Positions 1 through 12,754 of a stretch of DNA of 12,754 nucleotides are shown here, one piece after another. Every line of letters starts with the position of its first letter. The stretch's first letter is position 1. Made by a program: the position numbers and the translations under genes. This stretch comes from an uncultured Lachnospiraceae bacterium (GTDB lineage Bacteria; Bacillota; Clostridia; Lachnospirales; Lachnospiraceae), in NCBI GenBank assembly GCA_964386235.1, contig CAYLSH010000058.1, positions 1 to 12,754 of the forward strand. The letters run 5' to 3'. Under the pieces are notes generated by a model. The model was not told where the DNA came from. It searched no databases and was given only the letters and a program-made list of their open reading frames with translations.

Positions 1-36
1 TACGTAAGATAATACGTAAGATAATACGCAAGATGA
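1..36. repeat. Three direct 12-bp repeats (TACGTAAGATAA, TACGTAAGATAA, TACGCAAGATGA) abutting the window edge; the array may continue upstream
   Basis: Read directly: positions 1-12 and 13-24 are identical, 25-36 differs at 2 positions. Each unit contains the palindrome TACGTA. The 12-bp periodicity suggests a protein-binding iteron or operator. Confidence 0.55.
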
Positions 37-61
37 TGTGAAAAGTTATTGGAGGTATCTT

Positions 62-181
62 ATGGGAGATTATAAACCACCTTTACAATTACAAATGAGA
101 TATTGTCGTATGTATCATCCATCTCAGAGAAGATTGGTCGTATTTCAACTATCAGCAATTTGGAATCGAAACCGCATTTGA
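62..181 (+). CDS. Hypothetical small basic peptide, 39 aa (MGDYKPPLQLQMRYCRMYHPSQRRLVVFQLSAIWNRNRI)
   Basis: ATG at 62 lies 6 nt after a GGAGG Shine-Dalgarno (51-55). Open frame runs to TGA at 179-181. Too short for the ORF track. No recognisable family, so it could be spurious. Confidence 0.2.
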   Translation: MGDYKPPLQLQMRYCRMYHPSQRRLVVFQLSAIWNRNRI

Positions 182-238
182 CAAGCCTAATAGTAGGAAC
201 CAGAGATATGTTAGAGAATAATAGAAGTTAAAAGAATG

Positions 239-261
239 GTTGCCGACGGTCCACCGGCAAC
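239..261. other. Perfect 7-bp stem hairpin GTTGCCG-N9-CGGCAAC
   Basis: Reverse-complementary arms read directly. No U-tract follows, so it is not a canonical intrinsic terminator. Possible RNA structure or protein-binding palindrome. Confidence 0.3.
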
Positions 262-449: not shown

Positions 450-479
450 TTGACAGAAGATATTAGGATTTGCTATAAT
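450..479 (+). promoter_or_regulatory. Sigma-A type promoter: -35 TTGACA (450-455), 18-nt spacer, extended -10 TGcTATAAT (471-479)
   Basis: Consensus hexamers with a TG extended -10 motif, read directly. Upstream region is AT-rich. The predicted transcription start near 486 is about 55 nt before the ATG at 540. Confidence 0.5.
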
Positions 480-539
480 GTGCTAGGTAATTTTGACAAA
501 TTATTACATATTTTTTATCAACAAATTGACGAGGGGGAC

Positions 540-1832
540 ATGGATATGCCTATAATGAATGTTATAAAAAATGATGCATTTGGAGATATGCTTTGTTCCA
601 AAATACCATGTGAGGACTTTAACATTGGCTCGCAGCTGATTGTAGCGGAATATGAAGAAGCCCTTTTTATGAAGGATGGAATCATAGAAGAAGTATTTGG
701 TCCCGGTAAATATACGTTGACAACGGATAATTATCCGTTTTTGACCAAAATGATGTCGAAATTTTTGACGGGTGGTGTGAGTGCTTATAGTTGTAAAGTT
801 TACTTTATCAATAAATCACATCATCTGGAATTGAAGTGGGGAACCGGTACACCGGTTCGAATCATAGATCCTGTCTGGAATATAGAAGTACATGTACAGG
901 CAAGAGGAACGTACTCTGCTGTTGTCAAGGATGGAAAGAAGTTCTTTTTAAAGATGGTAGGTGCAAATGTAGCAGCCGCAGAAGGAGATTTAGTCAAGAA
1001 TTTCAGAACGGCATTTATTCAGAACATTACGGATGCACTGGCAGAATATCTTACTACTTCAAGAGATGAAGTTCTGGTTGTCTGCAATCGAAAGAAAGCA
1101 TTGGCAGATGACCTGAAACAGAGTTTGAATACCATTCTGGATGAATATGGTATGGAACTGGTTAATTTTTATATAGAAAATATAGAAATTCCGGAAAATG
1201 ACGCCTGCATGCAGAGAATCCGCGAATTGCGTATTCTTCGTCAGGAAAAAATGTTTGAAAGAGAACAAAATATTGCAGATGAAAGAATGCAGTTTGGATT
1301 GCGGCAGGAAGAAGCGGATGCGGCAAGATATGTTTCCGGCCAGCACGCACAAGCTGATTATGAAAGAATGCATATTCGTGATCAGGATGGAAATAATGGA
1401 TGGGCAAGGCAGGAAGTTGCTGAGATTTTGAAAAAAGCAGCGGACAATGAAGGCAACGGCTCGGAAATGATGAACATAGGAGTGGGACTCGGAATGGGTT
1501 CGGCAATGGGTGGCGCAGTACGGAATATGGCAGATATGTTTCTTGCAAACAATGAAACGACCAATACCGGAAAGGCTCCTGATACGCAAGTGTGTCCTCA
1601 CTGTAATGCAGTTGTTCCTGCAGGCATGAAGTTCTGTGGCGGATGTGGAAAACCATTACAACAACCTAAAAAAACATGTGCAAATTGCGGAGCGGAGTTG
1701 ATTGCAGGCATGAAATTCTGTGGTGAGTGCGGAACTCCGGTTGCACCGCAGAAAATAGTATGCAAAAACTGTGGGGCGGAAATAGCCGCTGAGATGAAGT
1801 TTTGCGGTGAATGCGGACAAAAAGTTGAATAG
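540..1832 (+). CDS. SPFH/Band-7 domain protein (YdjI-like, Band_7_1 type) with three C-terminal tandem zinc ribbons
   Basis: The ORF track gives 450..1832, but 450 is a TTG codon that coincides with the -35 hexamer. A start at ATG 540 (or ATG 546) just after GAGGGGG (531-537) is more credible. The N-terminal ~300 aa carry the F-x-N...WGT...P core and a charged helical region typical of SPFH proteins, assigned from memory of the Band_7_1 family. The C-terminus carries 3 units of C-x2-C-x9-MKFCGxCG. Confidence 0.8.
   Translation: MDMPIMNVIKNDAFGDMLCSKIPCEDFNIGSQLIVAEYEEALFMKDGIIEEVFGPGKYTLTTDNYPFLTKMMSKFLTGGVSAYSCKVYFINKSHHLELKWGTGTPVRIIDPVWNIEVHVQARGTYSAVVKDGKKFFLKMVGANVAAAEGDLVKNFRTAFIQNITDALAEYLTTSRDEVLVVCNRKKALADDLKQSLNTILDEYGMELVNFYIENIEIPENDACMQRIRELRILRQEKMFEREQNIADERMQFGLRQEEADAARYVSGQHAQADYERMHIRDQDGNNGWARQEVAEILKKAADNEGNGSEMMNIGVGLGMGSAMGGAVRNMADMFLANNETTNTGKAPDTQVCPHCNAVVPAGMKFCGGCGKPLQQPKKTCANCGAELIAGMKFCGECGTPVAPQKIVCKNCGAEIAAEMKFCGECGQKVE
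1593..1832 (+). repeat. Three tandem 84-bp coding repeats (last truncated to 72 bp), each encoding one zinc-ribbon unit
   Basis: Units start at 1593, 1677 and 1761. Each encodes C(P/A/K)(H/N)C(N/G)A(V/E)...GMKFCG(G/E)CG... Confidence 0.7.
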
Positions 1833-1843
1833 GGGGCGTACAA

Positions 1844-2524
1844 ATGAATAGTAAGATGTATAAAGGGCTGATTGCCCTGATTGCGATGGTTGCGGCAAAT
1901 GTGGGCGTATTTCTTCTGGTAAAACATTTTACACCATTATTTTGGATTAATTACAGTTTTGCCATGATTGCCTGCATACTTACGATTTTTATTAATATTT
2001 TTTCGCTGGATAAGGAAAAACCAATCTTTGGATATACACTGGCAGCGGTTTCCTGGGCATATTTAGCGGTGGAACTGGTTGCTGCGTTTGTATTTTCTAA
2101 ACTTCTTCCGTTCTTTCTTCTGCCGGCCTTTTTGATTCAGCTGTTTATTCTGGCAGCATTCGGAATCTGCTATCTGCAGGTGAAGATGGTAAATGAATCG
2201 ATTAAAGACAGACAGGCAGTTCGCGGAAATGAGATTTTGAACTTTAAGTATATCCTGGAAAAAATGAAAGAGGTACAACGTAAGATTGCTTATTCGGAAT
2301 CGTATCGAAAGACAGTGGATCATGCATATGATTCACTTGCAAGCGGACAGACCAAAAGTAATGATATGGCTGTAGAAGTTGAAAAGGCAATATTGGGTAA
2401 GATCAGTGATCTGGATACAGCAGTGGAGAAACATGCAGAGGAAGAAATTCTGGCTGTTTGCGGAGAAATTGAAAAGTTGTCGGAAGAACGGAAACGGATT
2501 TTGACATTAAGACAGAATTTTTAA
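1844..2524 (+). CDS. Integral membrane protein (4 predicted TM helices) with a C-terminal cytoplasmic coiled-coil region
   Basis: ATG at 1844 lies 7 nt after GGGGG (1832-1836), only 11 nt after the upstream stop. Four hydrophobic ~20-aa segments are followed by ~110 aa of charged heptad-like sequence. Confidence 0.75.
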   Translation: MNSKMYKGLIALIAMVAANVGVFLLVKHFTPLFWINYSFAMIACILTIFINIFSLDKEKPIFGYTLAAVSWAYLAVELVAAFVFSKLLPFFLLPAFLIQLFILAAFGICYLQVKMVNESIKDRQAVRGNEILNFKYILEKMKEVQRKIAYSESYRKTVDHAYDSLASGQTKSNDMAVEVEKAILGKISDLDTAVEKHAEEEILAVCGEIEKLSEERKRILTLRQNF

Positions 2525-2561
2525 ATACGAAGAACATTTTCATGTTGGAAAGAGGTAAGAA

Positions 2562-3239
2562 ATGAACAATCAGAGACCGTGGTATTATTCCTGGGGAGTT
2601 ATTATTTTAGCATTTTTATTTTTCTGGCCGGTAGGTATCGTGCTTTTGGTAATGAGAAACCGTAATACCAATAAAGTTTCAAGACAGTCTTTATTTACAA
2701 ATACGAATAAGAAAAAATATATAACAATTGGAGTAATCCTGATTGTTATAGGTCTTACGACTATATCGGATAGTGCTTTGATGGGACTTTTCCTGATAAT
2801 CGGAGGAATTATACTGATTATTTATTCCGAAAAATTGGTTAAGGATGCGGCAAGAAGAAAGAAATATATGGATCTGATCGTAAATAATCAGGTATATAGT
2901 CTGGAAAAAATTGCAAGTATTTGTAATGTACAGTATTCTATCGTGCTAAAGGAATTGAATCAGTTGATTTCCTTTGGCGTACTGAAAGGTGCATACATAG
3001 ATGAAGGCAAAAGACAGGTTATGATAGCAGGCACGCCGAACACATCCGGCATCATTCCAATGACACAAACGCTGGAAGATGGCCTTGCTTCCTTCACACA
3101 GACTGTTACCGGCGCAGCTGCTGTACAGCAGCCAAAGATGGTTGCTGCTGTATGTCCCGGATGTGGTGCTAAGATGTCCATTCCGGAAGGCGCGGTTGTG
3201 GAGTGTGAATATTGTGCAGCAACGGTATCAGCCCAGTAA
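2562..3239 (+). CDS. Membrane protein with 2-3 N-terminal TM helices, a winged-helix-like segment and a C-terminal CxxC...CxxC zinc ribbon
   Basis: ATG at 2562 lies 6 nt after AAGAGG (2550-2555). Hydrophobic segments sit at about aa 10-30 and 54-88. The segment YSLEKIASICNVQYSIVLKELNQLISFGVLKGAYIDEGKRQVM looks like a helix-turn-helix with a beta wing. The C-terminus reads CPGCGAKMSIPEGAVVECEYC. Confidence 0.75.
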   Translation: MNNQRPWYYSWGVIILAFLFFWPVGIVLLVMRNRNTNKVSRQSLFTNTNKKKYITIGVILIVIGLTTISDSALMGLFLIIGGIILIIYSEKLVKDAARRKKYMDLIVNNQVYSLEKIASICNVQYSIVLKELNQLISFGVLKGAYIDEGKRQVMIAGTPNTSGIIPMTQTLEDGLASFTQTVTGAAAVQQPKMVAAVCPGCGAKMSIPEGAVVECEYCAATVSAQ

Positions 3240-3272
3240 ATAACAACATTATTATTACAATGGGAGACAGAC

Positions 3273-3737
3273 ATGGATATATTTAATAAGGCAAAAGAAT
3301 CTATTTCTATTGCGGGAAAGGGATTTACACAGAAAGCAAATGATGTTTCCGGTATTGCGAAAGTAACCATGAAGATCCGGGAAGAGGAAAAAGAAATACA
3401 GGAAATTTACAAAAATGTTGGGGAACAGTTATGTATGTTACATCCCGAGGACATGACGAAATTATTTCCCGAACAGGCATATCACCTGGAGAATCTTAGA
3501 AAGCAGTTGGAAAAGGATAAACAGGAACTGGCGATTTATAAGGGAATGTGTATCTGTCCCAATTGTGGTTCGGAGCAGGAAAAAGACGTTTTGTGTTGTA
3601 CCGAATGCGGTATGAATATGGAAGATGCACGGCGCATGCAGTTACAACAGCAGGAAGTAGTATTGTGCCAAAATTGTGGAACGGCATTGGCAGCAGGATC
3701 AAAATTCTGTATGAATTGTGGGCAAAAAGTAGATTAG
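3273..3737 (+). CDS. Small coiled-coil protein with a C-terminal double zinc ribbon
   Basis: ATG at 3273 lies 5 nt after GGGAGA (3262-3267). The N-terminal ~100 aa are charged and helical. The C-terminus reads CPNCG...CCTECG and CQNCG...SKFCMNCGQKV, the same FC-x-CG zinc-ribbon signature as in the first gene. Confidence 0.75.
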   Translation: MDIFNKAKESISIAGKGFTQKANDVSGIAKVTMKIREEEKEIQEIYKNVGEQLCMLHPEDMTKLFPEQAYHLENLRKQLEKDKQELAIYKGMCICPNCGSEQEKDVLCCTECGMNMEDARRMQLQQQEVVLCQNCGTALAAGSKFCMNCGQKVD

Positions 3738-3739
3738 AA

Positions 3740-3786
3740 AAAAAGGTATTGAAAGTCAGAAATGGGTTTCAATACCTTTTTTATGT
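3740..3786 (+). terminator. Rho-independent (possibly bidirectional) terminator of the four-gene operon
   Basis: Perfect 15-bp stem AAAAAGGTATTGAAA (3740-3754) pairs with TTTCAATACCTTTTT (3767-3781) around a 12-nt loop, and runs into a T-tract. It starts 3 nt after the stop codon at 3737. Confidence 0.7.
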
Positions 3787-3889: not shown

Positions 3890-3918
3890 TTGACGATTGA
3901 CCCTATATAGCGTATAAT
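3890..3918 (+). promoter_or_regulatory. Sigma-A type promoter: TTGACG (3890-3895), 17-nt spacer, TATAAT (3913-3918), with an upstream A-tract
   Basis: Near-consensus hexamers with exact 17-nt spacing, preceded by an AAAAAACAAAGAAAAATTTT UP-like element. It predicts a leader of about 120 nt before the ATG at 4048. Confidence 0.5.
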
Positions 3919-4047: not shown

Positions 4048-5670
4048 ATGAAACGAAGTGTTTTTCACAGTATATGCTATGGGACATGGATTGTGATTGC
4101 CGTTTTGTTTTTCTTTCTTTTTGATTACATCAAGGTAAATGTTTCCGGCGGAGAGGCAAAGAAGGATTATGAGGTACTGGTGGACTATGATGTGGAAACC
4201 GGGCTGGATCCGGCGGCACCGACGGGAATACGCAAGATATACGATTTTACCTTAAATGGGATAGAAGAATCGTATTGCGAACTGGTTTTTTACTGTATCC
4301 ATCAGAATGCGGAAGTATATCTGGATGGAGAACGCATTTATGATATGCAGATGCCGGAAGGCGGCATTGCCGGCGGATCTCCGGGATATATGTGGAATGC
4401 CCTTTCCTTTTCGGAAGAGGACAACGGGAAGGAACTGCGGATAGAGATTGTGCCGGTATACAGTTCTTCCAATGACATCACGCCCATTTTGTATTTTGGC
4501 AACCGGTATGACATCGCAAGGGTTATTATCATGGATTCTTTATGGAATCTGCTCTTTAGCGTGATTGTAATTGCGCTGGGCCTTGTATACATATGTTTCG
4601 TGCTGTTTAATAATCGAAAAACAAAGGTGGAAAACAGTTTGTCCATGCTGGGCTTCTTTGCGATTCAGCTGGGACTGTGGAAAATTTCGGAGTCTGAGGC
4701 GGTCAATTTCCTCATTTCCGGACATCCGGCGTTTTCACAGGTTACCTTTGTATCCTTGATGTTTATGGGAATATCCATGATATTGTACATAAAGGAACTG
4801 TACAGTACACATGACAAATGGATCTGGTATGTGCCGTGTGTATTAGGATTTACCAATGTGATCCTCACACTTTTGTTACAATTTGCAGGCGTGGCGGATA
4901 TGCGTCAGATGCTGCCGGTTACGCATGGTGTGATTGGCGTGGGGATTGTGATTACCATCGTGATGACGGTTTATGAAGTGTTCTGCGTCGGCTGGACAAA
5001 GAAACTGAAATTGAATCTGGGATGTCTGGCGGGCTGCTTTGTGGGCGCCGGCATAGATATGCTTTTTTACTATGTCTCAAAGGGAAGTGCACCTTCTGTT
5101 TTTTCCATGGTGGGATTTTTGGTGTACATTCTTGTGCTGGGTATTGCGTCCATGCAGGATATTAAGGAATTGATGCGGTATGGGATCCGGGCCAAAAAAT
5201 ATGCGCAACTGGCATACCACGATCAGTTAACGGGCTTATATAACCGCACCGCATACGAAGAATTTACGAAAAGTCAGGAATTTGATCCGGAAGACTGCGT
5301 TGTTTTGATCATGGATTTGAACAATTTAAAAAGCTGCAATGATGTATTGGGACATGACAAAGGAGATATTTACATCAGGGAAGCGGCGGAAGCCATCAAA
5401 GAATCCTTCGGGAACGTGGGCAATTGCTACCGAATGGGTGGTGATGAATTCTATGTGTTGGCAAAAAGCGAGTCGGCGGATGAGTGTAAAAGAAGGATTG
5501 AACAGTTGCAGAAGCGCGTAGCTGCGTGCAAGGCAGTGGGCGAGGACTTTAAAATGGGGATCGCCTGTGGTTTCCAATTTTTTGACAGGGATATGGATCG
5601 CGATATCAGCGAGACAGTCAGACGCGCGGATAAGGCGATGTATCAGGATAAATTTGCGATGAAATCGTAG
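4048..5670 (+). CDS. Membrane diguanylate cyclase with 7TMR-DISM architecture: signal anchor, ~150-aa extracellular domain, 7 TM helices, C-terminal GGDEF domain
   Basis: ATG lies 7 nt after AGGGGGA. Seven hydrophobic segments span aa ~162-373. The GGDEF domain runs from YHDQLTGLYNR through MDLNNLKSCND..GHDKGD and YRMGGDEF to ADKAMYQDK. No RxxD I-site precedes GGDEF. Confidence 0.9.
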   Translation: MKRSVFHSICYGTWIVIAVLFFFLFDYIKVNVSGGEAKKDYEVLVDYDVETGLDPAAPTGIRKIYDFTLNGIEESYCELVFYCIHQNAEVYLDGERIYDMQMPEGGIAGGSPGYMWNALSFSEEDNGKELRIEIVPVYSSSNDITPILYFGNRYDIARVIIMDSLWNLLFSVIVIALGLVYICFVLFNNRKTKVENSLSMLGFFAIQLGLWKISESEAVNFLISGHPAFSQVTFVSLMFMGISMILYIKELYSTHDKWIWYVPCVLGFTNVILTLLLQFAGVADMRQMLPVTHGVIGVGIVITIVMTVYEVFCVGWTKKLKLNLGCLAGCFVGAGIDMLFYYVSKGSAPSVFSMVGFLVYILVLGIASMQDIKELMRYGIRAKKYAQLAYHDQLTGLYNRTAYEEFTKSQEFDPEDCVVLIMDLNNLKSCNDVLGHDKGDIYIREAAEAIKESFGNVGNCYRMGGDEFYVLAKSESADECKRRIEQLQKRVAACKAVGEDFKMGIACGFQFFDRDMDRDISETVRRADKAMYQDKFAMKS

Positions 5671-5718: not shown

Positions 5719-7341
5719 ATGAAAAAGGACCTTTTGCATGGTGTCTGTTATGCGGCGTGGATAGGAATTGCCATCTTATTCTTTTGCCATTTAAAGTATA
5801 CCAATGTGGATGTTTATGGCGGGCAAGCCAAAGAAAATTATGAAATACTGACGGAATATGACATGGAAACCATGCAGGATTCAACGGCTCCGACGGGAAT
5901 ACGCAAGATCTATGATATTACTTTGGACGGGATTAAAGAATCGTATTGCGAACTGGTTTTTTTCACCATTCATCAGACTTCCAGGGTGTATTTGGATGAC
6001 ACCTGTATTTACAGTATGCAGATGAAGGATGGGGGAGTTATGGGCAGATCACCCGGCTATACCTGGAATGCCCTTTCTTTTTCAGAAAAAGATAACGGTA
6101 AAAATCTGCGGATAGAGATTACACCGGTATACAGTTCTTCCGATGACATCGTGCCCGTTTTATATTTTGGAAACCGGTATGATATTGCAAGGGATGTCAT
6201 CAAGGGGTCCTTGTTGGATCTGTTATTTAGTATAGCCTCAATAGTAGTGGGCATGGTGTACATCATTTTTGTGGCATTTAACAACCGTAAAACAAAAACA
6301 GAAAGCAGTCTTGCCATGCTGGGATTTCTGGCAATTCAACTGGGATTGTGGAGATTTTCCGATTCTGAGGCGGTTAACTTTCTGATTCCGGGCAGACCGG
6401 AGTTTTCCCAGATTACCTTTTTGTCCCTCATGTTTATCGCAACAGCAATGGGACTGCATATAAAACAACTGTATAGTACACGCAAAAAATGGATCTGGTA
6501 TATATCCATTGTGTTGGGGTTTGCCAATATCGTAATCTCGTTGTTGCTGCAGTGCTTGGGCGTGGCCGATATGCGCCAGATGCTGCCGTTTACGCATGTG
6601 GTGATGGCAATCTGTATAGTGGTTACCATTGTGATGACGATTTACGAAATACGTTATGTGGGATGGACGAAAAAATTAAAATTACATGTTGGATGTCTTA
6701 CGGGTTGCTTTGCGGGTGCCATAGTTGATATGGGACTCTATTACGCGACTAGTGGAGTGGCTCCCTCTACATTTACCATGCTGGGATTTATGGTTTATAC
6801 CATGGTGCTGGGAACGGCTTCGATGCATGAAGTTAAGGAACTGATGCAATTTGGTATCCGGGCAAAACGCTACGAAAAACTGGCATATTACGATCAGCTG
6901 ACAGGTTTATACAACCGTACCGCATACGAAGAATTTACCAAAAACCACGATTTTAACCCGGAAAACTGTGTCGTTCTGATCATGGACCTAAACAATTTGA
7001 AAAGTTGTAATGACACCTTTGGACACGACAAAGGGGATGTATATATCAGGGAAGCGGCAAAAACAATCGGCGAGTTGTTCGGAAATGCCGGCAACTGCTA
7101 CCGGATGGGCGGCGATGAATTCTATGTATTGGCAAAAAATGAAACAGCGGATGATCTGAAAGACAGAATCAAACAGTTGCAGGAACATATGGCGGCATGC
7201 AAAACTGTGGATGAAAACTTTGAAATGGGGATTGCCTGCGGTTTCCGGTTTTTTGACAAGAACATGGACCGTGATATCGGCGAGACTGTCAGACGCGCGG
7301 ATAAGGCAATGTATCAGAATAAATTTGCGATGAAGTCCTAA
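5719..7341 (+). CDS. Paralogous membrane diguanylate cyclase (7TMR-DISM plus GGDEF), tandem duplicate of the previous gene
   Basis: Same length (540 aa) and colinear along the whole protein, at roughly 65-70% amino-acid identity by eye. Identical nucleotide runs of 20-25 nt are shared, for example CCGACGGGAATACGCAAGAT. The same AGGGGGAC ribosome-binding context is present. The 48-nt intergenic gap has no terminator. Confidence 0.9.
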   Translation: MKKDLLHGVCYAAWIGIAILFFCHLKYTNVDVYGGQAKENYEILTEYDMETMQDSTAPTGIRKIYDITLDGIKESYCELVFFTIHQTSRVYLDDTCIYSMQMKDGGVMGRSPGYTWNALSFSEKDNGKNLRIEITPVYSSSDDIVPVLYFGNRYDIARDVIKGSLLDLLFSIASIVVGMVYIIFVAFNNRKTKTESSLAMLGFLAIQLGLWRFSDSEAVNFLIPGRPEFSQITFLSLMFIATAMGLHIKQLYSTRKKWIWYISIVLGFANIVISLLLQCLGVADMRQMLPFTHVVMAICIVVTIVMTIYEIRYVGWTKKLKLHVGCLTGCFAGAIVDMGLYYATSGVAPSTFTMLGFMVYTMVLGTASMHEVKELMQFGIRAKRYEKLAYYDQLTGLYNRTAYEEFTKNHDFNPENCVVLIMDLNNLKSCNDTFGHDKGDVYIREAAKTIGELFGNAGNCYRMGGDEFYVLAKNETADDLKDRIKQLQEHMAACKTVDENFEMGIACGFRFFDKNMDRDIGETVRRADKAMYQNKFAMKS

Positions 7342-7604
7342 GACGGCATCCGGAATCGGTGTGAAGGAGAATATGTGTATGGAGCGTTGGCTGATTGCGA
7401 CTGTAAACGTGATAGTACTGGTAGGGGGTGGCTTTTTGCTGTATCGCCACTTTGTTACAAACAGGATTATGGATAAGGACACAATTCTGTTTCCGCCGGA
7501 CGGATGGCAAAAATTATGCGGAACTCGAACTGGAGGATGGCAGAAAATGCCGGATTGAGATCGAATACCTTGAGGAAAGTCCCACGATCAATGGCATGTA
7601 TACA

Positions 7605-7636
7605 TTGACATTTTATACCGGGGGGGGGGGTAAAAT
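7605..7636 (+). promoter_or_regulatory. Candidate phase-variable promoter: perfect -35 TTGACA (7605-7610), 20-nt spacer containing the G11 tract, -10 TAAAAT (7631-7636)
   Basis: Hexamers read directly. The spacer (TTTTATACC plus G11) is 3 nt longer than the 17-nt optimum. Loss of 3 G would give a near-ideal promoter 86 bp upstream of the giant secreted protein gene. Confidence 0.35.
7620..7630. repeat. Homopolymeric G11 tract
   Basis: Read directly: g at 7620 plus gggggggggg at 7621-7630. This is very unusual in a genome that otherwise appears to be about 40-45% GC. It is a candidate slipped-strand mispairing site, or a homopolymer sequencing error. Confidence 0.9.
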
Positions 7637-7721
7637 GCAAAGTAATAGCGTGGGGCAGATGCCAACGCACAGAAAATAAGCCAAATGAGCTTAAATATTG
7701 TAGAAGAGGAAAGGTAAAAGG

Positions 7722-7799
7722 ATGAGAAAGACGAAACAATTTCTAGCATTTGCACTTGCCATCATGATGTTCATGACCAATACGGTGAGTGCTTCGGCA
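7722..7799 (+). other. Predicted Sec signal peptide (26 aa) of the giant protein
   Basis: Basic n-region MRKTKQ, hydrophobic core FLAFALAIMMFM, c-region TNTVSASA with an A-x-A-like cleavage context before TGTG. Confidence 0.6.
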
Positions 7800-10700
7800 A
7801 CCGGAACCGGCGTCACGCTTGGGCAAAGCGGTCAGAATGTGATTGCGACAACCGGAGAAACGGGAGTTCCGGAAACGGGTGAACCGGAGACGGGAACACC
7901 GGAAATGGGTGAACCGGAGACGGGGACAGCGGAAACAGGTGAAGTGGAAACAGGAGTTCCGGAAACGGGAACACCGGAAGCAACAGAACCAACCACCGAG
8001 GAGGCGACCGCTAAAGAGGCGACCACCGAGGAAAGTACGGAGGGGATGCTTGCAGCGGATGTGCTGAAGGATACCACGGTGGACTTTAGTACGACACAGA
8101 CGGGGGACTATGTGATCCCGGTCAGTGACGGCACTGCGACGGTTTATGTAAAGACACTTGCGGATGCGGTGGATTATGTGGATAAGATCGGCAATAACAG
8201 CACTGCATATACGATTAATTATAATCTCAAAGGTAAGACATACTCGATTGGAGAAAATGATCTGGTATCCGCTGAGAAAAGAAATATTACGCTGATTACG
8301 GATGAGATTTCACTTGATGGCAATGTAAATATCGCTATTCAGGCGTCCGCTATTTCCAGTGTGAAGGGGGATGAACTTACTATTCAGAGTGGGCTATATT
8401 CCACAAAACTCAGTGGCACAACGGATAATAAATGTACAATAGAAGGCGCTATTAGTATTGGGGAGGGTGCCTCTGTTACATTGGAGAATGTCATTCTGGG
8501 CACTGCAGATGAAGGAGTCGACATCACTGATTTAGGGACAGGCAATCATTCCATAACCATTATGGACGCTACGATTCAAAATTTGAATTCCATTTCTATT
8601 TCGGGTGCACTTGCACTTGTGGATATTACGGTAGCGGATGGAAAACAACTACCTATAGATTTGACTGATACTTATGCAAGTTCGGCTGATTATGAGGTGG
8701 GCAAAACGAAAACCAGGACGGTGTTTCAGGTAAGCGGAAGCCTGACGGTGGGAAGCGGCAATTCTACAAATGAAGAAAATGTCGCACCGATTAAAATTAA
8801 GAAAAGCGCCTCTGTAGACAATGATGGGTATTACACTGTCGCACCCGTTCATGGGGACCTCCTTGCCGTATACACGGGGACGGATCCGGAACACTCCGGA
8901 TGGACAGATCTTTCCCATTACGAGATAACAGGGATGACCAATCCGGAGAATTTTTCTATTGTGCCGGAGAAAACAGGGGAAGGCATCTACAATCTGATTT
9001 TGCAGGAAAAGAGTATTGTATCCCTTACGGAAGAGCCGGACGCTACGAATCCTACCGTAAAATATTATGGTAATATGGAGGCTTTAAAGACTTATCTGAC
9101 AAGCGATGCAGCAGAAAACAAGTCCTATCTGATTACCTTATTGGATGATGTGGAATCATTGGGGACGGAAACCTTGGACTTTTCTTCTTCAAAGGCGGCT
9201 TGTATTGATCTGAAAATGAATGAGCATACGATTTCCTTTTCAGATCAATTGGCGATTGTGGTGGATAAGGTAATCGGGGATGATAAGGCTCAGTTTATTG
9301 GAACCGGTAGCGGTAATTCACTCAGCATTGGATCAAGAACGGAGAGTAAAACTTACTGGAAAAAGGTTGCACTGAGTGGCATGGAATATCTTTCCATAAA
9401 AGGTAGTGTAACAATTGATAATGCCCTTACATGGGATGTGGACGAGGTCACTATAGATAAAGATATTGAAATCAATAGTCTGACGGCTGATAAAGTGGTG
9501 TATAAGAGTGAGTATACTACTCTGCGCATTAACACGGCATTGAATACGGATTACCTGGGATTTTACGACGATGAAGCCGGCAATTCGACCGCTCTTCATG
9601 CAGCGCCGGGGGCAACTTTAAACATCAAAGATGTTCAGTTTAGTGATAACACATCACTGACGATCTGTCTGGAATATAAGGATGGTACGCCCATTGCGGG
9701 GAATGCACTTACGATCACCGGAGATGTGACTTGTGGAACCCAAAACACACCGATTACGATCGTAAAGAGCAAACGCGCTCCTAGGACAGAGAATAATGTG
9801 GTAGTTAAGGATGACTTCGGCAATACGGTTTATGATGAAACCGAAGAACATTTTGCAAATGGGGAAACAATCGCAACCGTAACGAATATGGATGTGTCGG
9901 CTGATTGTTTTAAGATAAACGGAAAAACTGCGAGAGTGGAACGAAGCGGGGACAAAATGAAAGCCATTCTGCCCACCGTAGAAGTAACCGGCCTGAGATC
10001 GGGATTTACAAAGGGATATGCCAGCCTGAATGATGCCGTGAAGAATCTGGCGGCGGACACAAATAGTACTGAGGATTCTTATCAGTTTACGCTTCTTGCG
10101 GATGAAAAACTGACGGCGAATATGACACTTCCGTCATTTGTAACAGAAGCGACTTTCGTTACATTGGACGAAGCGGGTGTCTATGAGCAGCATAGCCTGG
10201 ATCTGAACGGAAAGACCCTGTCCTCTGCCGGCCTGATAAAGGTTACGGGGGGTGCCGGCATGTGCAGCACATCGGCAACAAGCGGTAAACTCGTAACCAC
10301 ATCCGGCGATTATAAGACTTTGCAACTCACACCGGGTAAAGTTAAGGGTGTAAGATCCCCCATGTTGGATAATGTGGCGGTAAGTGTTAAAAATGGTTCT
10401 GTCGTTTTTGACATAGAAAGCGGATGTGAGAAAAATGAAGAACACATACTGAACGCGACCTTTGATGTCAAGGAGTTTACTGTTTGGACGGAAAGTATCT
10501 GGAAGATTGAAAATCTAAATTCCAAGACCAAGGGCTATATTAAGACAGAAGCATACAACTTAAACGGTAGTATGACGGTTGATCAGTTGTATATTCAGGT
10601 GCCCAAAGGGGCAATGGCAGATATGTCGAGATTACATGGCAACCTGAATGTCAACACGATGACAATGCAGAATGCATACATGGTTAGTGACACTGCATCC

Positions 10701-12754
10701 AATGTTAGAGTGGGAACCTTAAAGGAAACCGAGTCCTCCCTTTCTTTGGAAGGCAATCTGCAACTGGGAAATGTGACATTAAACAATTCCGAACTGTATA
10801 TGGGATATTATACGGATTTTGAGGGTGAAAAAGAAAATGGGTATACTACGAATGCAGTGATTGGTACCCTTACTCTTTCCGGTGGCAGTGAATTCTGGTG
10901 CTATGGAAAATGTGAAGCGGAAAAGATTGAGTCCACTGCTTCACAGATTGCAACGTATTTCGGATTGATTGATATTGAGAATCTGACTGTTAATTCTGCC
11001 TATGCAGGTGAAAGTCAGAATAAATACACATTGTATAACATGGGTGATTCCGACTATGAAGGCGGCATCCGGATCTCCGGCACCCTGAACATGAAAGCCG
11101 GTACTTTATACAATGATGCCTACGGCAAGATGGAGATCGGCAAAGCAATTGTAAAAGATGTGGTCAATGGAGAATACGCGCAGATAATCTGCAATGATTT
11201 TACCAATACGGGCAAACTGACTCTGGAAAAAGAGAGTAAACTTCTGCTCAACAAAACGGCAGCATTAAACAATGTAAAAGAAGCAAAATGCGGGAATGAT
11301 GACTATGCAGCCATCGGACGCAGTGCGGATGCAACCGTTACGTTAAAAGGCAGCTTTACAACGGAATCTGAGGAAGACCGCATTTATGCCTTTGTAACGG
11401 ATAAATATAAGGATGCCGTTACAACGGATACTTTTGAAACGATTGTATTTCCGGCAAAGAATACGGCAGTTAATGGTGAAATAGATACTTTGAATGCAGG
11501 GGATACTCTTTTTAAGACTGAGATCAGGACTTTCCCGTCAGAGAGTATTCAGGTATTGCCGCAGTGGCTATCGAATGTAACAAACGAAAGAATAGCCAAT
11601 CCAAATGATGCCGTATATCAGCAGGACAAAGATCTTAAAATAAGCGGCAACTATATCACGGTGTATGTGAATAAGCCGGATGGAAAGGGAGAAACTAAAC
11701 TTCAGGCATTTTCCCAATGGAAGGATGCGGTTGCGTATATCAATACGCTGAATAATATGGAAGCTTCCTACACGATCGGTATCTCCAATCATGTGGATAC
11801 CATGGGAAAACTGGAACTTCCGACCAAAGCAGCCGGCATTACGGTGCGTAGTGACGTTGAGGACGGAGAAGGGGAAGAGACTTCAAGAAAGCCGGTTCTT
11901 CTCTACTACCGGGACGATATTGCACTGAATACGGACACAACCTTTGACAGTATTTATTTTGTACCGTATAAAGCGGGCACAACGAAAACAAAATATGTCG
12001 GTTCCATCGATACAAAAGGAAAGAGATTGGAACTGAAGGCAATCGGATCGCTGGCCTATTGTGAAGATTTAGACCCGGAACAGTTGGGCGAGGAGGACAT
12101 TGCTCCTTTCAAGGCGATCAAAGGAACCAAAACCACGGAAGTATATATAAACGACACTGATTTGATGATTACGGATAAGATGACCGGCATTCATCAGCTT
12201 ACACTTTTAAATGATGCATCTTTAAGTGCGCGCGGTGGTTTGTCCGTGGACGTTGTATACAGTGATCCGGGAGAAGATCATAATGAACTGTATGTACTCG
12301 GAGAAAAGAATGTTCTGGAAATAAAAGAGCAGCTCGTGATGAAGGGTGGGACTTCTCTTGTAAGTGACGGAAGCATAAAAGTGAAGGACGTTGTCACAAA
12401 CGGTTCCGGAAACTCTATGGTGACCTTAAAAGAAAACAACATTCTGATCACCGGAAGGGTGTATGCTAAGACGGGTACACAGCGTGATAATACAATTCTT
12501 ATCGCCACGCGGGATAATGGAAATATACTTGCGAATGCCAAACTGGTATCTCCGACCTGGTTTAAAACAGGGGAGCTCGATGGAGAGGGTAACTTCGGGG
12601 AAAGCACTTATTCGGTATATAAAGATGGCGATATGCTTGTGCGTACTTCACACGGGGAAAATATTCTTCTTTCTGTGAAAAACGCAAGCAGTGTGGATAA
12701 AATCAACCAGTTTGAAACATTGCAGGAAGCCTTTTTAGAGATCGATCGCCTTGG
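7722..12754 (+). CDS. Giant secreted or cell-surface repeat protein (5' partial, more than 1677 aa): signal peptide, acidic ETGxP linker, beta-helix-like modular repeats
   Basis: ATG 7722 lies 11 nt after GAGGA (7706-7710). The frame stays open to the window end, and the absence of any stop-delimited + strand ORF in the track agrees. The N-terminus MRKTKQFLAFALAIMMFMTNTVSASA is a Sec signal peptide. Low-complexity T/E/P-rich region. The body is rich in T/S/N/G/I/V with strand-like periodic motifs such as GNVNIAIQASAIS, CTIEGAISIGEGASVTLENVILG and SITIMDATIQNLNSISISG. Confidence 0.85.
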   Translation, partial: MRKTKQFLAFALAIMMFMTNTVSASATGTGVTLGQSGQNVIATTGETGVPETGEPETGTPEMGEPETGTAETGEVETGVPETGTPEATEPTTEEATAKEATTEESTEGMLAADVLKDTTVDFSTTQTGDYVIPVSDGTATVYVKTLADAVDYVDKIGNNSTAYTINYNLKGKTYSIGENDLVSAEKRNITLITDEISLDGNVNIAIQASAISSVKGDELTIQSGLYSTKLSGTTDNKCTIEGAISIGEGASVTLENVILGTADEGVDITDLGTGNHSITIMDATIQNLNSISISGALALVDITVADGKQLPIDLTDTYASSADYEVGKTKTRTVFQVSGSLTVGSGNSTNEENVAPIKIKKSASVDNDGYYTVAPVHGDLLAVYTGTDPEHSGWTDLSHYEITGMTNPENFSIVPEKTGEGIYNLILQEKSIVSLTEEPDATNPTVKYYGNMEALKTYLTSDAAENKSYLITLLDDVESLGTETLDFSSSKAACIDLKMNEHTISFSDQLAIVVDKVIGDDKAQFIGTGSGNSLSIGSRTESKTYWKKVALSGMEYLSIKGSVTIDNALTWDVDEVTIDKDIEINSLTADKVVYKSEYTTLRINTALNTDYLGFYDDEAGNSTALHAAPGATLNIKDVQFSDNTSLTICLEYKDGTPIAGNALTITGDVTCGTQNTPITIVKSKRAPRTENNVVVKDDFGNTVYDETEEHFANGETIATVTNMDVSADCFKINGKTARVERSGDKMKAILPTVEVTGLRSGFTKGYASLNDAVKNLAADTNSTEDSYQFTLLADEKLTANMTLPSFVTEATFVTLDEAGVYEQHSLDLNGKTLSSAGLIKVTGGAGMCSTSATSGKLVTTSGDYKTLQLTPGKVKGVRSPMLDNVAVSVKNGSVVFDIESGCEKNEEHILNATFDVKEFTVWTESIWKIENLNSKTKGYIKTEAYNLNGSMTVDQLYIQVPKGAMADMSRLHGNLNVNTMTMQNAYMVSDTASNVRVGTLKETESSLSLEGNLQLGNVTLNNSELYMGYYTDFEGEKENGYTTNAVIGTLTLSGGSEFWCYGKCEAEKIESTASQIATYFGLIDIENLTVNSAYAGESQNKYTLYNMGDSDYEGGIRISGTLNMKAGTLYNDAYGKMEIGKAIVKDVVNGEYAQIICNDFTNTGKLTLEKESKLLLNKTAALNNVKEAKCGNDDYAAIGRSADATVTLKGSFTTESEEDRIYAFVTDKYKDAVTTDTFETIVFPAKNTAVNGEIDTLNAGDTLFKTEIRTFPSESIQVLPQWLSNVTNERIANPNDAVYQQDKDLKISGNYITVYVNKPDGKGETKLQAFSQWKDAVAYINTLNNMEASYTIGISNHVDTMGKLELPTKAAGITVRSDVEDGEGEETSRKPVLLYYRDDIALNTDTTFDSIYFVPYKAGTTKTKYVGSIDTKGKRLELKAIGSLAYCEDLDPEQLGEEDIAPFKAIKGTKTTEVYINDTDLMITDKMTGIHQLTLLNDASLSARGGLSVDVVYSDPGEDHNELYVLGEKNVLEIKEQLVMKGGTSLVSDGSIKVKDVVTNGSGNSMVTLKENNILITGRVYAKTGTQRDNTILIATRDNGNILANAKLVSPTWFKTGELDGEGNFGESTYSVYKDGDMLVRTSHGENILLSVKNASSVDKINQFETLQEAFLEIDRL
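7857..7976 (+). repeat. Eight tandem 15-bp coding repeats encoding ETG(V/E/T)(P/A/V) pentapeptides (acidic linker)
   Basis: Read directly (ccggaaacgggtgaa, ccggagacgggaaca, and so on). It produces low-complexity frame artefacts: a + strand arginine-rich ORF (7843..8067) and a - strand S/P/V-rich ORF (7832..8077). Confidence 0.7.

What the first reader, a model, noticed from the sequence alone, without database searches (positions are those of the whole stretch)
450..3786. Self-contained four-gene SPFH / zinc-ribbon / membrane-protein operon resembling a PspA-less version of the Bacillus pspA-ydjGHI envelope-stress module
One promoter and one terminator bracket four tightly spaced genes, with intergenic gaps of 11, 37 and 33 nt. 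(1) An SPFH/Band-7 protein of the YdjI type carries a C-terminal triple zinc ribbon. (2) A 4-TM protein has a cytoplasmic coiled coil. (3) A membrane protein has a winged-helix-like segment and a zinc ribbon. (4) A ~100-aa coiled-coil protein has a double zinc ribbon. Three of the four proteins share the same FC-x-CG zinc-ribbon signature, which suggests one interacting set. In B. subtilis the SPFH protein YdjI is encoded with PspA, the zinc-ribbon protein YdjG and the membrane protein YdjH, and it is needed to recruit PspA to the membrane. Here no PspA/IM30-length coiled-coil protein is present, and the zinc ribbons are spread across three proteins. This is therefore an uncharacterised rearranged variant. 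Such SPFH-centred membrane modules are also candidate phage-defence or membrane-damage-sensing systems.
Basis: partly seen in the sequence, partly recalled or inferred. Interest (0 to 1): 0.65.

Follow-up and report, generated by a model that had tools for sequence, protein, structure and literature searches.

The report
SPFH scaffold operon with novel membrane partners
This four-gene operon of a gut or rumen Lachnospiraceae bacterium encodes a soluble SPFH scaffold protein with three zinc ribbons plus an uncharacterised membrane partner that travels with it across several bacterial phyla, so it resembles the Bacillus PspA-SamGHI membrane-stress module in design but shares only the SPFH protein with it.

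Summary
One perfect sigma-70 promoter (450-479) and one strong hairpin terminator (3739-3782) bracket four plus-strand genes with gaps of 11, 37 and 33 nt.

- g1: Band_7_1 SPFH plus three zinc ribbons, no transmembrane segment.
- g2: four transmembrane helices plus a cytoplasmic helical bundle.
- g3: three transmembrane helices, a winged helix and a zinc ribbon.
- g4: helical N-terminus plus a double zinc ribbon (154 aa, not about 100).

g1 shares family and architecture with B. subtilis YdjI/SamI (23% identity). g2 and g3 show no similarity to YdjH (TPM domain) or YdjG, and no PspA lies in the window or in 32 related loci.

The real unit is a g1-g2 pair:
- A g2-like gene directly follows the g1-like gene in 31 of 32 evaluable genomes, across Bacillota, Actinobacteria and Verrucomicrobia.
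- The g2 family has about 1,500 clusters at 50% identity and no Pfam or NCBIfam model.
- One member is fused to a Ser/Thr kinase beside a Band_7_1-SHOCT gene.

g3 always follows the pair; g4 is optional. I found no defence-system signal.

Verdict: a new variant of a known kind of SPFH membrane module, of moderate interest.

The parts
450..479 (+). Sigma-70-type promoter: -35 TTGACA (450-455), 18-nt spacer, extended -10 TGcTATAAT (471-479)
   Evidence: The consensus scan gives a 12/12 match with TG before the -10. Sequence read.
540..1832 (+). g1: soluble SPFH protein (430 aa from ATG 540; probably 428 aa from ATG 546). SPFH/Band_7_1 domain at about nt 621-1199, then a coiled coil, a Gly/Met-rich linker and three zinc ribbons at about nt 1581-1829.
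   Evidence: Pfam Band_7_1 6e-36, Zn_Ribbon_1 1e-18 (three stretches), DZR 1e-16. No hydrophobic segment. 23% identity to B. subtilis YdjI over the SPFH domain, E = 1e-14. 1,205 word-index homologs, named only 'SPFH domain-containing protein'.
1844..2524 (+). g2: 226-aa integral membrane protein with four transmembrane helices plus a cytoplasmic helical bundle. It is the conserved partner of g1.
2562..3239 (+). g3: 225-aa membrane protein with three transmembrane helices (N-terminus out, C-terminus in, by the positive-inside rule), a long helix, a cytoplasmic winged helix, a disordered linker and a C-terminal zinc ribbon.
3273..3737 (+). g4: 154-aa soluble protein with a helical N-terminal half and a double zinc ribbon. 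It is an optional accessory subunit.
   Evidence: DZR 4e-8 and Zn_Ribbon_1 6e-10; no PspA_IM30 hit at E <= 1. Eight invariant Cys in 7 homologs. Present in only 6 of the 12 complete close loci.
3739..3782 (+). Intrinsic terminator: a 16-bp A/U-rich stem with an inner 3-bp stem, followed by a U run
   Evidence: RNA fold -22.1 kcal/mol, z = -6.26, 0 of 200 shuffles fold as well.

Best explanation
The operon encodes a membrane-associated SPFH scaffold module.

Its core is a two-protein unit. g1 is a soluble Band_7_1 SPFH protein that, like other SPFH proteins, is expected to self-assemble into a ring or cage. g2 is a four-transmembrane-helix protein with a cytoplasmic helical bundle. I infer that g2 is the membrane receptor that docks g1 at the inner face of the membrane and is regulated by it.

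g3 (transmembrane helices, winged helix, zinc ribbon) is a clade-specific third subunit. g4 (helical region plus two zinc ribbons) is an optional fourth. All six zinc ribbons are cytoplasmic and probably act as small interaction modules.

Neither membrane protein has an extracytoplasmic domain, so any signal would have to be sensed within the membrane or in the cytoplasm.

By analogy with B. subtilis SamGHI, the likely role is membrane homeostasis or stress signalling. In SamGHI the cytosolic SPFH protein SamI is recruited by, and restrains, a membrane sensor pair, and PspA is dispensable for part of the phenotype.

The module is analogous to SamGHI, not orthologous: only the SPFH component is shared.

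Shown: gene content, folds, synteny and the kinase fusion. Inferred: physical g1-g2 binding, ring formation and the physiological signal.
For: - Operon structure.
- g1 domains and lack of a membrane anchor.
- g1-g2 adjacency: a g2-like ORF lies directly downstream of the g1-like gene in 31 of 32 evaluable genome loci. These include Lachnospiraceae, Paenibacillus, Bacillus timonensis, Anaeroplasma and uncultured Bacilli MAGs, Opitutaceae and Pseudoscardovia, plus a Butyrivibrio plasmid.
- Searching from the g2 side gives the same pairing. P0191 and P0310 sit immediately after Band_7_1-SHOCT genes.
- Fusion: P0191 joins a zinc ribbon, a Ser/Thr kinase and a g2-like module. It lies beside FHA, PP2C and two further kinase genes, which links the pair to signalling.
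- The g2 family is large and uniform in length at about 225 aa. Polar and aromatic residues in the transmembrane helices (N19, W34, Y37, Y73) and cytoplasmic residues (D163, S172, E180, R216) are conserved.
- g3 homologs at 30-33% identity still follow Band_7_1-ZnR plus a g2-sized gene.
- Folds of g2 and g3.
- SHOCT and zinc-ribbon tails alternate on Band_7_1 proteins (PMC3581485).
Against: - There is no experimental or structural evidence that g1 binds g2. I could not run complex prediction.
- The SamGHI analogy rests on a 23%-identical SPFH domain and non-homologous partners.
- The g3 model has only moderate confidence (pLDDT 65).
- A winged helix can bind either DNA or protein, so g3's role is open.
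- PspA could be encoded elsewhere in the genome. I hold only 12.7 kb.
- The tblastn search for PspA with the B. subtilis protein has limited sensitivity.
- No stress-type promoter is present. The promoter is a housekeeping consensus, and no sigma-W motif was found.
Confidence: 0.6

Rival explanations
1. One reading: the operon is a rearranged, PspA-less derivative of the Bacillus pspA-ydjGHI (samGHI) operon. g2 and g3 would be diverged YdjH and YdjG, and the complex would recruit a PspA encoded elsewhere.
For: g1 and YdjI share Pfam family and architecture. Both operons combine a soluble SPFH-ZnR protein with two membrane proteins and extra zinc ribbons.
Against: - YdjH is a TPM_phosphatase protein and YdjG has an N-terminal Zn_Ribbon_TF. 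g2 and g3 have neither, and BLASTP shows nothing beyond CxxC ribbons.
- g2 and g3 have almost no extracytoplasmic sequence, unlike YdjH.
- The g1 clade is 40% identical to a Bacillus g1-like protein but 23% identical to YdjI.
- The g2 family is absent from the B. subtilis locus.
- No PspA, YdjG or YdjH was found in any related locus.
Confidence: 0.12
2. A membrane-tethered transcription-factor circuit. g3's winged helix binds DNA, and the g1/g2 SPFH assembly sequesters or releases it in response to membrane state, giving a direct transcriptional output.
For: - SamI restrains signalling by SamGH.
- Other clades replace g3 with kinases or ZnR-TPR adaptors, which fits interchangeable output modules.
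Against: - No Pfam HTH model hits g3.
- No protease or release mechanism is encoded.
- The model has moderate confidence.
Confidence: 0.15
3. An anti-phage defence or abortive-infection system built on an SPFH membrane sensor.
For:
- One distant paralogous copy sits on a small Butyrivibrio plasmid near a restriction S subunit and a toxin-antitoxin pair.
- The accessory genes vary between clades.
Against: - None of the four proteins has a significant PADLOC hit (best E = 0.012).
- The 89 neighbouring proteins of the close loci are housekeeping: Rho, ECF/ABC transporters, SfsA, RhaA, RpoB. Their PADLOC hits are mostly spread thinly over many models (no model hit by more than five of them), with isolated strong hits to candidate models PDC-S01 and PDC-S03 that I did not trace.
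- Phage genomes hold only 22-24%-identical SPFH hits.
- No effector domain (nuclease, pore-former, NADase, protease) is encoded.
- The operon has a constitutive-looking promoter.
Confidence: 0.06
4. An HflK/C-like or stomatin-NfeD-like SPFH cage that regulates a membrane protease or channel encoded elsewhere, with g2 to g4 as substrates or adaptors.
For: SPFH cages commonly enclose proteases or channels (established knowledge of HflK/C-FtsH and stomatin-NfeD). In Butyrivibrio, HflK/C-like Band_7 genes lie close upstream.
Against: g1 has no transmembrane anchor. No NfeD, FtsH or other protease domain is in the operon or conserved nearby. The nearby Band_7 pair is seen in only two related genomes.
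Confidence: 0.05

Closest known systems
B. subtilis PspA-SamGHI (pspA-ydjGHI) module; SamI/YdjI SPFH protein
   Same: The SPFH protein belongs to the same Pfam family (Band_7_1). It has no membrane anchor, a Gly/Met-rich low-complexity linker and a C-terminal zinc ribbon. It is co-encoded with two integral membrane proteins and further zinc-ribbon domains. The likely logic is a soluble SPFH protein docked on a membrane partner.
   Different: - Only 23% identity to YdjI.
- Three ribbons instead of one.
- No PspA gene.
- The partners are not homologous: a 4TM helical-bundle protein and a 3TM winged-helix-ZnR protein, against the TPM-domain YdjH and the ZnR/NTF2-like YdjG.
- No extracytoplasmic domain.
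- Gene order is SPFH first, not last.
- A sigma-70 consensus promoter rather than sigma-W.
Band_7_1 (PF13421) SPFH proteins with C-terminal SHOCT or zinc-ribbon tails. From my own knowledge these correspond to COG4260, 'stomatin/prohibitin family, contains C-terminal Zn-ribbon'.
   Same: g1 is a clear member by score and architecture. Relatives with a SHOCT tail have the same g2-type neighbour.
   Different: The family is annotated only generically, and I found no paper describing the conserved g2 partner in four literature searches. The triple ribbon is typical of the Lachnospiraceae clade; other clades have two, one or none.
Flotillins FloA/FloT and HflK/C or stomatin-NfeD operons
   Same: They share the SPFH fold and probably oligomeric scaffolding at the membrane.
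   Different: Those proteins have their own transmembrane helix or hairpin and match Pfam Band_7 strongly. Their partners are NfeD or FtsH. g1 has no anchor, matches Band_7 only weakly (27.7 bits) and has different partners.

Membership tests
Band_7_1 SPFH family (PF13421) with a C-terminal zinc ribbon | Matches the Pfam Band_7_1 model above the gathering score | tested here: met
   124.5 bits against a cut-off of 24, E = 6e-36.
Band_7_1 SPFH family (PF13421) with a C-terminal zinc ribbon | C-terminal zinc ribbon(s) after a low-complexity linker, and no transmembrane anchor | tested here: met
   Three Zn_Ribbon_1 stretches, E = 1e-18. No hydrophobic window at or above 1.6. The Gly/Met-rich stretch is read directly and parallels YdjI.
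Band_7_1 SPFH family (PF13421) with a C-terminal zinc ribbon | Self-assembly into SPFH rings or cages | not testable with these tools
   Needs biochemistry or multimer prediction.
PspA-SamGHI (pspA-ydjGHI) operon of Bacillus | PspA/IM30 protein encoded in the operon | tested here: not met
   No PspA_IM30 hit at E <= 1 for any of the four proteins. No tblastn hit with B. subtilis PspA in the window or in the other loci held.
PspA-SamGHI (pspA-ydjGHI) operon of Bacillus | YdjH/SamH-type membrane protein with a TPM domain | tested here: not met
   YdjH matches TPM_phosphatase at 3e-23. g2 and g3 have no TPM hit and no BLASTP similarity.
PspA-SamGHI (pspA-ydjGHI) operon of Bacillus | YdjG/SamG-type protein: N-terminal zinc ribbons, a globular domain and a C-terminal transmembrane helix | tested here: not met
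   g3 has the opposite layout, with N-terminal transmembrane helices and a C-terminal ribbon. Similarity is limited to the ribbon (E = 0.04).
PspA-SamGHI (pspA-ydjGHI) operon of Bacillus | YdjI/SamI-type cytosolic SPFH protein | tested here: met
   Same Pfam family and architecture; 23% identity over 217 residues, E = 1e-14. This is membership of the family, not shown orthology.
PspA-SamGHI (pspA-ydjGHI) operon of Bacillus | Sigma-W-dependent stress promoter | tested here: not met
   No TGAAAC-N15-18-CGTA motif in the window; the sigma-W consensus used is from my own knowledge. The promoter is a sigma-70 consensus. How far sigma-W applies to Clostridia is itself uncertain.
Known or candidate anti-phage defence systems (PADLOC-DB 2.0) | At least one component matches a defence-system model, or the locus lies in a defence island | tested here: not met
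   Best hit E = 0.012. Neighbours in the 15 close loci are housekeeping.
HflK/C-FtsH or stomatin-NfeD SPFH operons | Membrane-anchored SPFH protein paired with NfeD or a protease | tested here: not met
   No transmembrane segment in g1. No NfeD or protease domain in the operon.

The most novel reading that the evidence does not exclude
The Band_7_1-g2 pair is a widespread, PspA-independent, intramembrane-sensing signalling module not described in the papers I searched. An SPFH ring gates a four-transmembrane-helix sensor (g2). The output is swapped between lineages: a membrane-tethered winged-helix-ZnR protein (g3) in Lachnospiraceae, ZnR-TPR adaptors in Bacillales and Opitutaceae, large ZnR proteins in Anaeroplasma and uncultured Bacilli MAGs, and Hanks-type Ser/Thr kinases with PP2C and FHA partners elsewhere. 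On this reading it would be a new class of bacterial envelope-stress or signalling system, parallel to Psp, Lia and SamGHI.
Probability: 0.25. Interest if true: 0.65.

Novelty: new variant of a known kind. Interest (0 to 1): 0.45.

Why it matters
SPFH proteins occur in all domains of life, but how they act is poorly understood. The only studied soluble, zinc-ribbon-bearing bacterial member is B. subtilis SamI.

This locus shows that a large sister clade of such proteins is tied to a different conserved membrane partner. That partner family has about 1,500 clusters at 50% identity and no Pfam or NCBIfam model. The pairing holds across several phyla, includes abundant gut and rumen Lachnospiraceae, has no PspA in the neighbourhood, and in places is wired to Ser/Thr kinase signalling.

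This gives a concrete two-protein unit in which to test how soluble SPFH scaffolds are recruited to membranes and what they regulate. It also gives a functional lead for two families of hypothetical proteins.

It is an incremental extension of a known theme, not a new principle.

Tried and rejected
- Homology of g2 and g3 to YdjH and YdjG. I recovered the B. subtilis operon from a metagenome contig using a published primer. BLASTP and Pfam show no relation.
- PspA nearby. None found in the window or in the other loci held, but only by tblastn with the B. subtilis protein.
- Defence system. PADLOC on the four proteins and on 89 neighbours, plus phage and plasmid searches, gave nothing specific.
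- Rfam scan of the window for riboswitches or leaders: no match.
- The two-transmembrane-helix, 225-aa proteins of the Bacillales loci as distant g3 relatives. A weak HMM hit (E = 2e-4) was not borne out; their globular domain is different.
- A link to the downstream GGDEF genes. It is seen only in the same species (L048) and is not conserved.
- The 336-aa upstream ORF in three relatives looked HTH-like by eye but has no Pfam hit.
- The word-index search for g2 was insensitive, with 8 hits. The exhaustive profile search was needed.


Full report
**1. Observation**

The window carries four plus-strand ORFs at 450/540..1832, 1844..2524, 2562..3239 and 3273..3737. The intergenic gaps are exactly 11, 37 and 33 nt, and each gene has its own Shine-Dalgarno sequence.

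Coordinate 450 is not a start codon. It is the -35 box of a perfect sigma-70 promoter: TTGACA, 18 nt, then TGcTATAAT ending at 479, a 12/12 match with an extended -10. The Shine-Dalgarno GAGGGGG lies at 531-537. Translation starts at ATG 540 or, by spacing and by the 428-aa length of the 96%-identical homolog P0009, more likely at ATG 546.

Directly after g4 a hairpin at 3739-3782 folds at -22.1 kcal/mol (z = -6.3) and is followed by a U run. The consensus scanner missed it because the stem is A/U-rich. The next genes have their own promoter-like site at 3890-3918. The operon description is therefore confirmed.

**2. The four proteins**

- **g1** matches Pfam Band_7_1 (E = 6e-36) and three Zn_Ribbon_1/DZR units (E = 1e-18). 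It has no hydrophobic segment. Between the SPFH and coiled-coil part and the ribbons lies a Gly/Met-rich low-complexity stretch.
- **g4** is 154 aa, not about 100. It has a helical N-terminal half and a double ribbon.

The F-C-x-x-C-G signature is present in g1 and g4 only. It is the generic consensus of these Pfam ribbon families and is also found in YdjI.

By the positive-inside rule, all the ribbons and the winged helix are cytoplasmic. Neither membrane protein has an extracytoplasmic domain (inferred from the sequences).

**3. Comparison with B. subtilis pspA-ydjGHI**

I recovered the operon on a metagenome contig (L043) with the published ydjI primer (PMC8581546). Pfam confirms the following:

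| Protein | Pfam match |
|---|---|
| PspA | PspA_IM30 |
| YdjG | N-terminal Zn_Ribbon_TF |
| YdjH | TPM_phosphatase |
| YdjI | Band_7_1 plus one ribbon |

g1 aligns to YdjI at 23% identity over 217 residues (E = 1e-14). g2, g3 and g4 show nothing beyond CxxC ribbons against YdjH, YdjG and PspA.

By contrast, g1 is 40% identical to the g1-like protein of Bacillus timonensis, which is itself only 23% identical to YdjI. So g1 belongs to a sister clade of YdjI within Band_7_1.

**4. Synteny**

A scan of one genome per species found 33 loci with a full g1 relative. One of them (L015) is cut off by a contig end.

- With a family HMM built from 159 g2 relatives, a g2-like ORF lies directly downstream of the g1-like gene in 31 of the 32 evaluable loci. 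Only L013 lacks it.
- The hosts are Lachnospiraceae, Paenibacillus, Bacillus, Gorillibacterium, Tyzzerella, Anaeroplasma and uncultured Bacilli MAGs, Subdoligranulum, Opitutaceae and Pseudoscardovia.
- The B. subtilis ydj locus has no g2.
- A paralogous copy on Butyrivibrio plasmid pNP21 also has a g2-like gene, there split across two reading frames.
- g3 follows g1-g2 in all 12 complete close Lachnospiraceae loci and is cut off by the contig end in L002. It also does so in three of three contexts of g3 homologs at only 30-33% identity.
- g4 is present in six of the twelve complete close loci and absent from Pseudobutyrivibrio and Butyrivibrio.

Other clades keep the pair but swap the accessories:

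| Clade | Accessory proteins |
|---|---|
| Bacillales | ZnR-TPR protein plus a two-transmembrane-helix protein |
| Opitutaceae and a Clostridia MAG | ZnR(-TPR) protein |
| Tyzzerella, Clostridia MAGs, Anaeroplasma and uncultured Bacilli MAGs | An N-terminal-ZnR protein of about 665 aa plus a membrane protein of about 600 aa |

**5. The g2 family**

An exhaustive profile search finds 1,493 representatives at 50% identity (436 at E <= 1e-10), almost all of about 225 aa.

One member, P0191, is a fusion of a zinc ribbon, a Ser/Thr kinase and a g2-like module. It is encoded immediately after a Band_7_1-SHOCT gene and next to FHA, PP2C and two more kinase genes. Another member, P0310, follows an ORF whose tail is the Band_7_1 Gly/Met-rich region plus SHOCT.

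SHOCT is known as the commonest tail of PF13421 proteins (PMC3581485). The C-terminal tail (zinc ribbon or SHOCT) therefore varies while the g2 partner stays.

**6. Defence and mobility**

- None of the four proteins has a significant PADLOC hit.
- The 89 neighbouring proteins of the 15 close loci are housekeeping: Rho, ECF/ABC transporters, SfsA, RhaA, RpoB. Their PADLOC hits are mostly spread thinly over many models (no model hit by more than five proteins), with isolated strong hits to candidate models PDC-S01 and PDC-S03 that I did not trace.
- Phage records hold only SPFH hits at 22-24% identity.
- Plasmids hold one 26%-identical paralog with full coverage.
- The module encodes no effector-type domain.

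**7. Mechanism**

The best-supported reading is a membrane-docked SPFH scaffold. Soluble g1 is inferred to assemble as SPFH proteins do. It is recruited to, and probably regulates, the 4TM helical-bundle protein g2. g3 and g4 act as lineage-specific cytoplasmic adaptor or output subunits, connected through small zinc-ribbon modules.

This parallels SamGHI. There the cytosolic SamI needs SamG and SamH for membrane localisation, restrains their signalling, and acts partly independently of PspA.

The kinase fusion points to a signalling role for the g2 module. With no outside domain, sensing would be intramembrane.

All of this beyond gene content, folds and synteny is inference. No interaction has been tested.

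**8. Verdict**

The locus is a new variant of a known kind: a YdjI-type SPFH module with non-homologous partners not described in the literature I searched. Interest is moderate. The main value is the conserved Band_7_1-g2 pair and its links to signalling.

PspA independence is shown only for the neighbourhood, not for the genome.

Noticed in passing
window 4048-5670 and 5719-7341: Two tandem paralogous 540-aa membrane diguanylate cyclases, 69% identical with an intact GGDEF motif and a multi-pass 7TMR-DISM-like region. They sit directly downstream of the operon with their own promoter-like site at 3890-3918. The same arrangement occurs in the same-species contig L048 but not in other relatives.
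   Followed up: partly
window 7722-12752 (runs off the end): An ORF of at least 1,677 aa with a signal-peptide-like N-terminus and 15/30-nt tandem repeats at 7857-7979. It has no Pfam hit at all and is probably a large surface protein.
   Followed up: partly
window 1-261: A 12-nt tandem repeat TACGTAAGATAA (2.8 copies) lies at the very start. A 39-aa ORF (62-181) has a strong GGAGG Shine-Dalgarno sequence. A G+C-rich hairpin lies at 239-261. Rfam finds nothing here.
   Followed up: no
L045 781-12174 (also L046, L047): A cluster of FHA, PP2C, TPR and small genes, then Band_7_1-SHOCT, then the fusion of zinc ribbon, Ser/Thr kinase and g2-like module, then two more Ser/Thr kinases. Here the SPFH-g2 pair is embedded in a Hanks-kinase signalling cluster.
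   Followed up: partly
L044 6001-9354 (Butyrivibrio fibrisolvens plasmid pNP21): A plasmid-borne paralog: SPFH-ZnR at 26% identity to g1, followed by a g2-like gene split across two reading frames (7169-7510 and 7492-7947, annotated only as a 145-aa hypothetical protein) and a 464-aa TPR protein. It lies near a restriction S subunit and a YoeB/RelB toxin-antitoxin pair.
   Followed up: partly
L004 6159-9861 and L009 6219-9849: In two Butyrivibrio MAGs a pair of membrane-anchored Band_7 (HflK/C-like) genes and rho lie immediately upstream of the g1-g2-g3 operon, so three SPFH genes fall within 5 kb.
   Followed up: partly
L002 1804-2814, L003 2875-3885, L005 59-1069: A conserved 336-aa ORF (75-88% identical among the three) lies directly upstream of g1 in Agathobacter and Lachnobacterium relatives. 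Its N-terminus looks HTH-like by eye, but it has no Pfam hit. It may be a local regulator.
   Followed up: partly
L022-L032 and L049 (e.g. L024 11854-15680): In Tyzzerella, Clostridia, Anaeroplasma and uncultured Bacilli MAGs the SPFH-g2 pair is followed by a conserved protein of about 665 aa with an N-terminal zinc ribbon and a membrane protein of about 600 aa. Neither has a significant Pfam match. In L049 a bPH_1 gene is inserted as well.
   Followed up: partly
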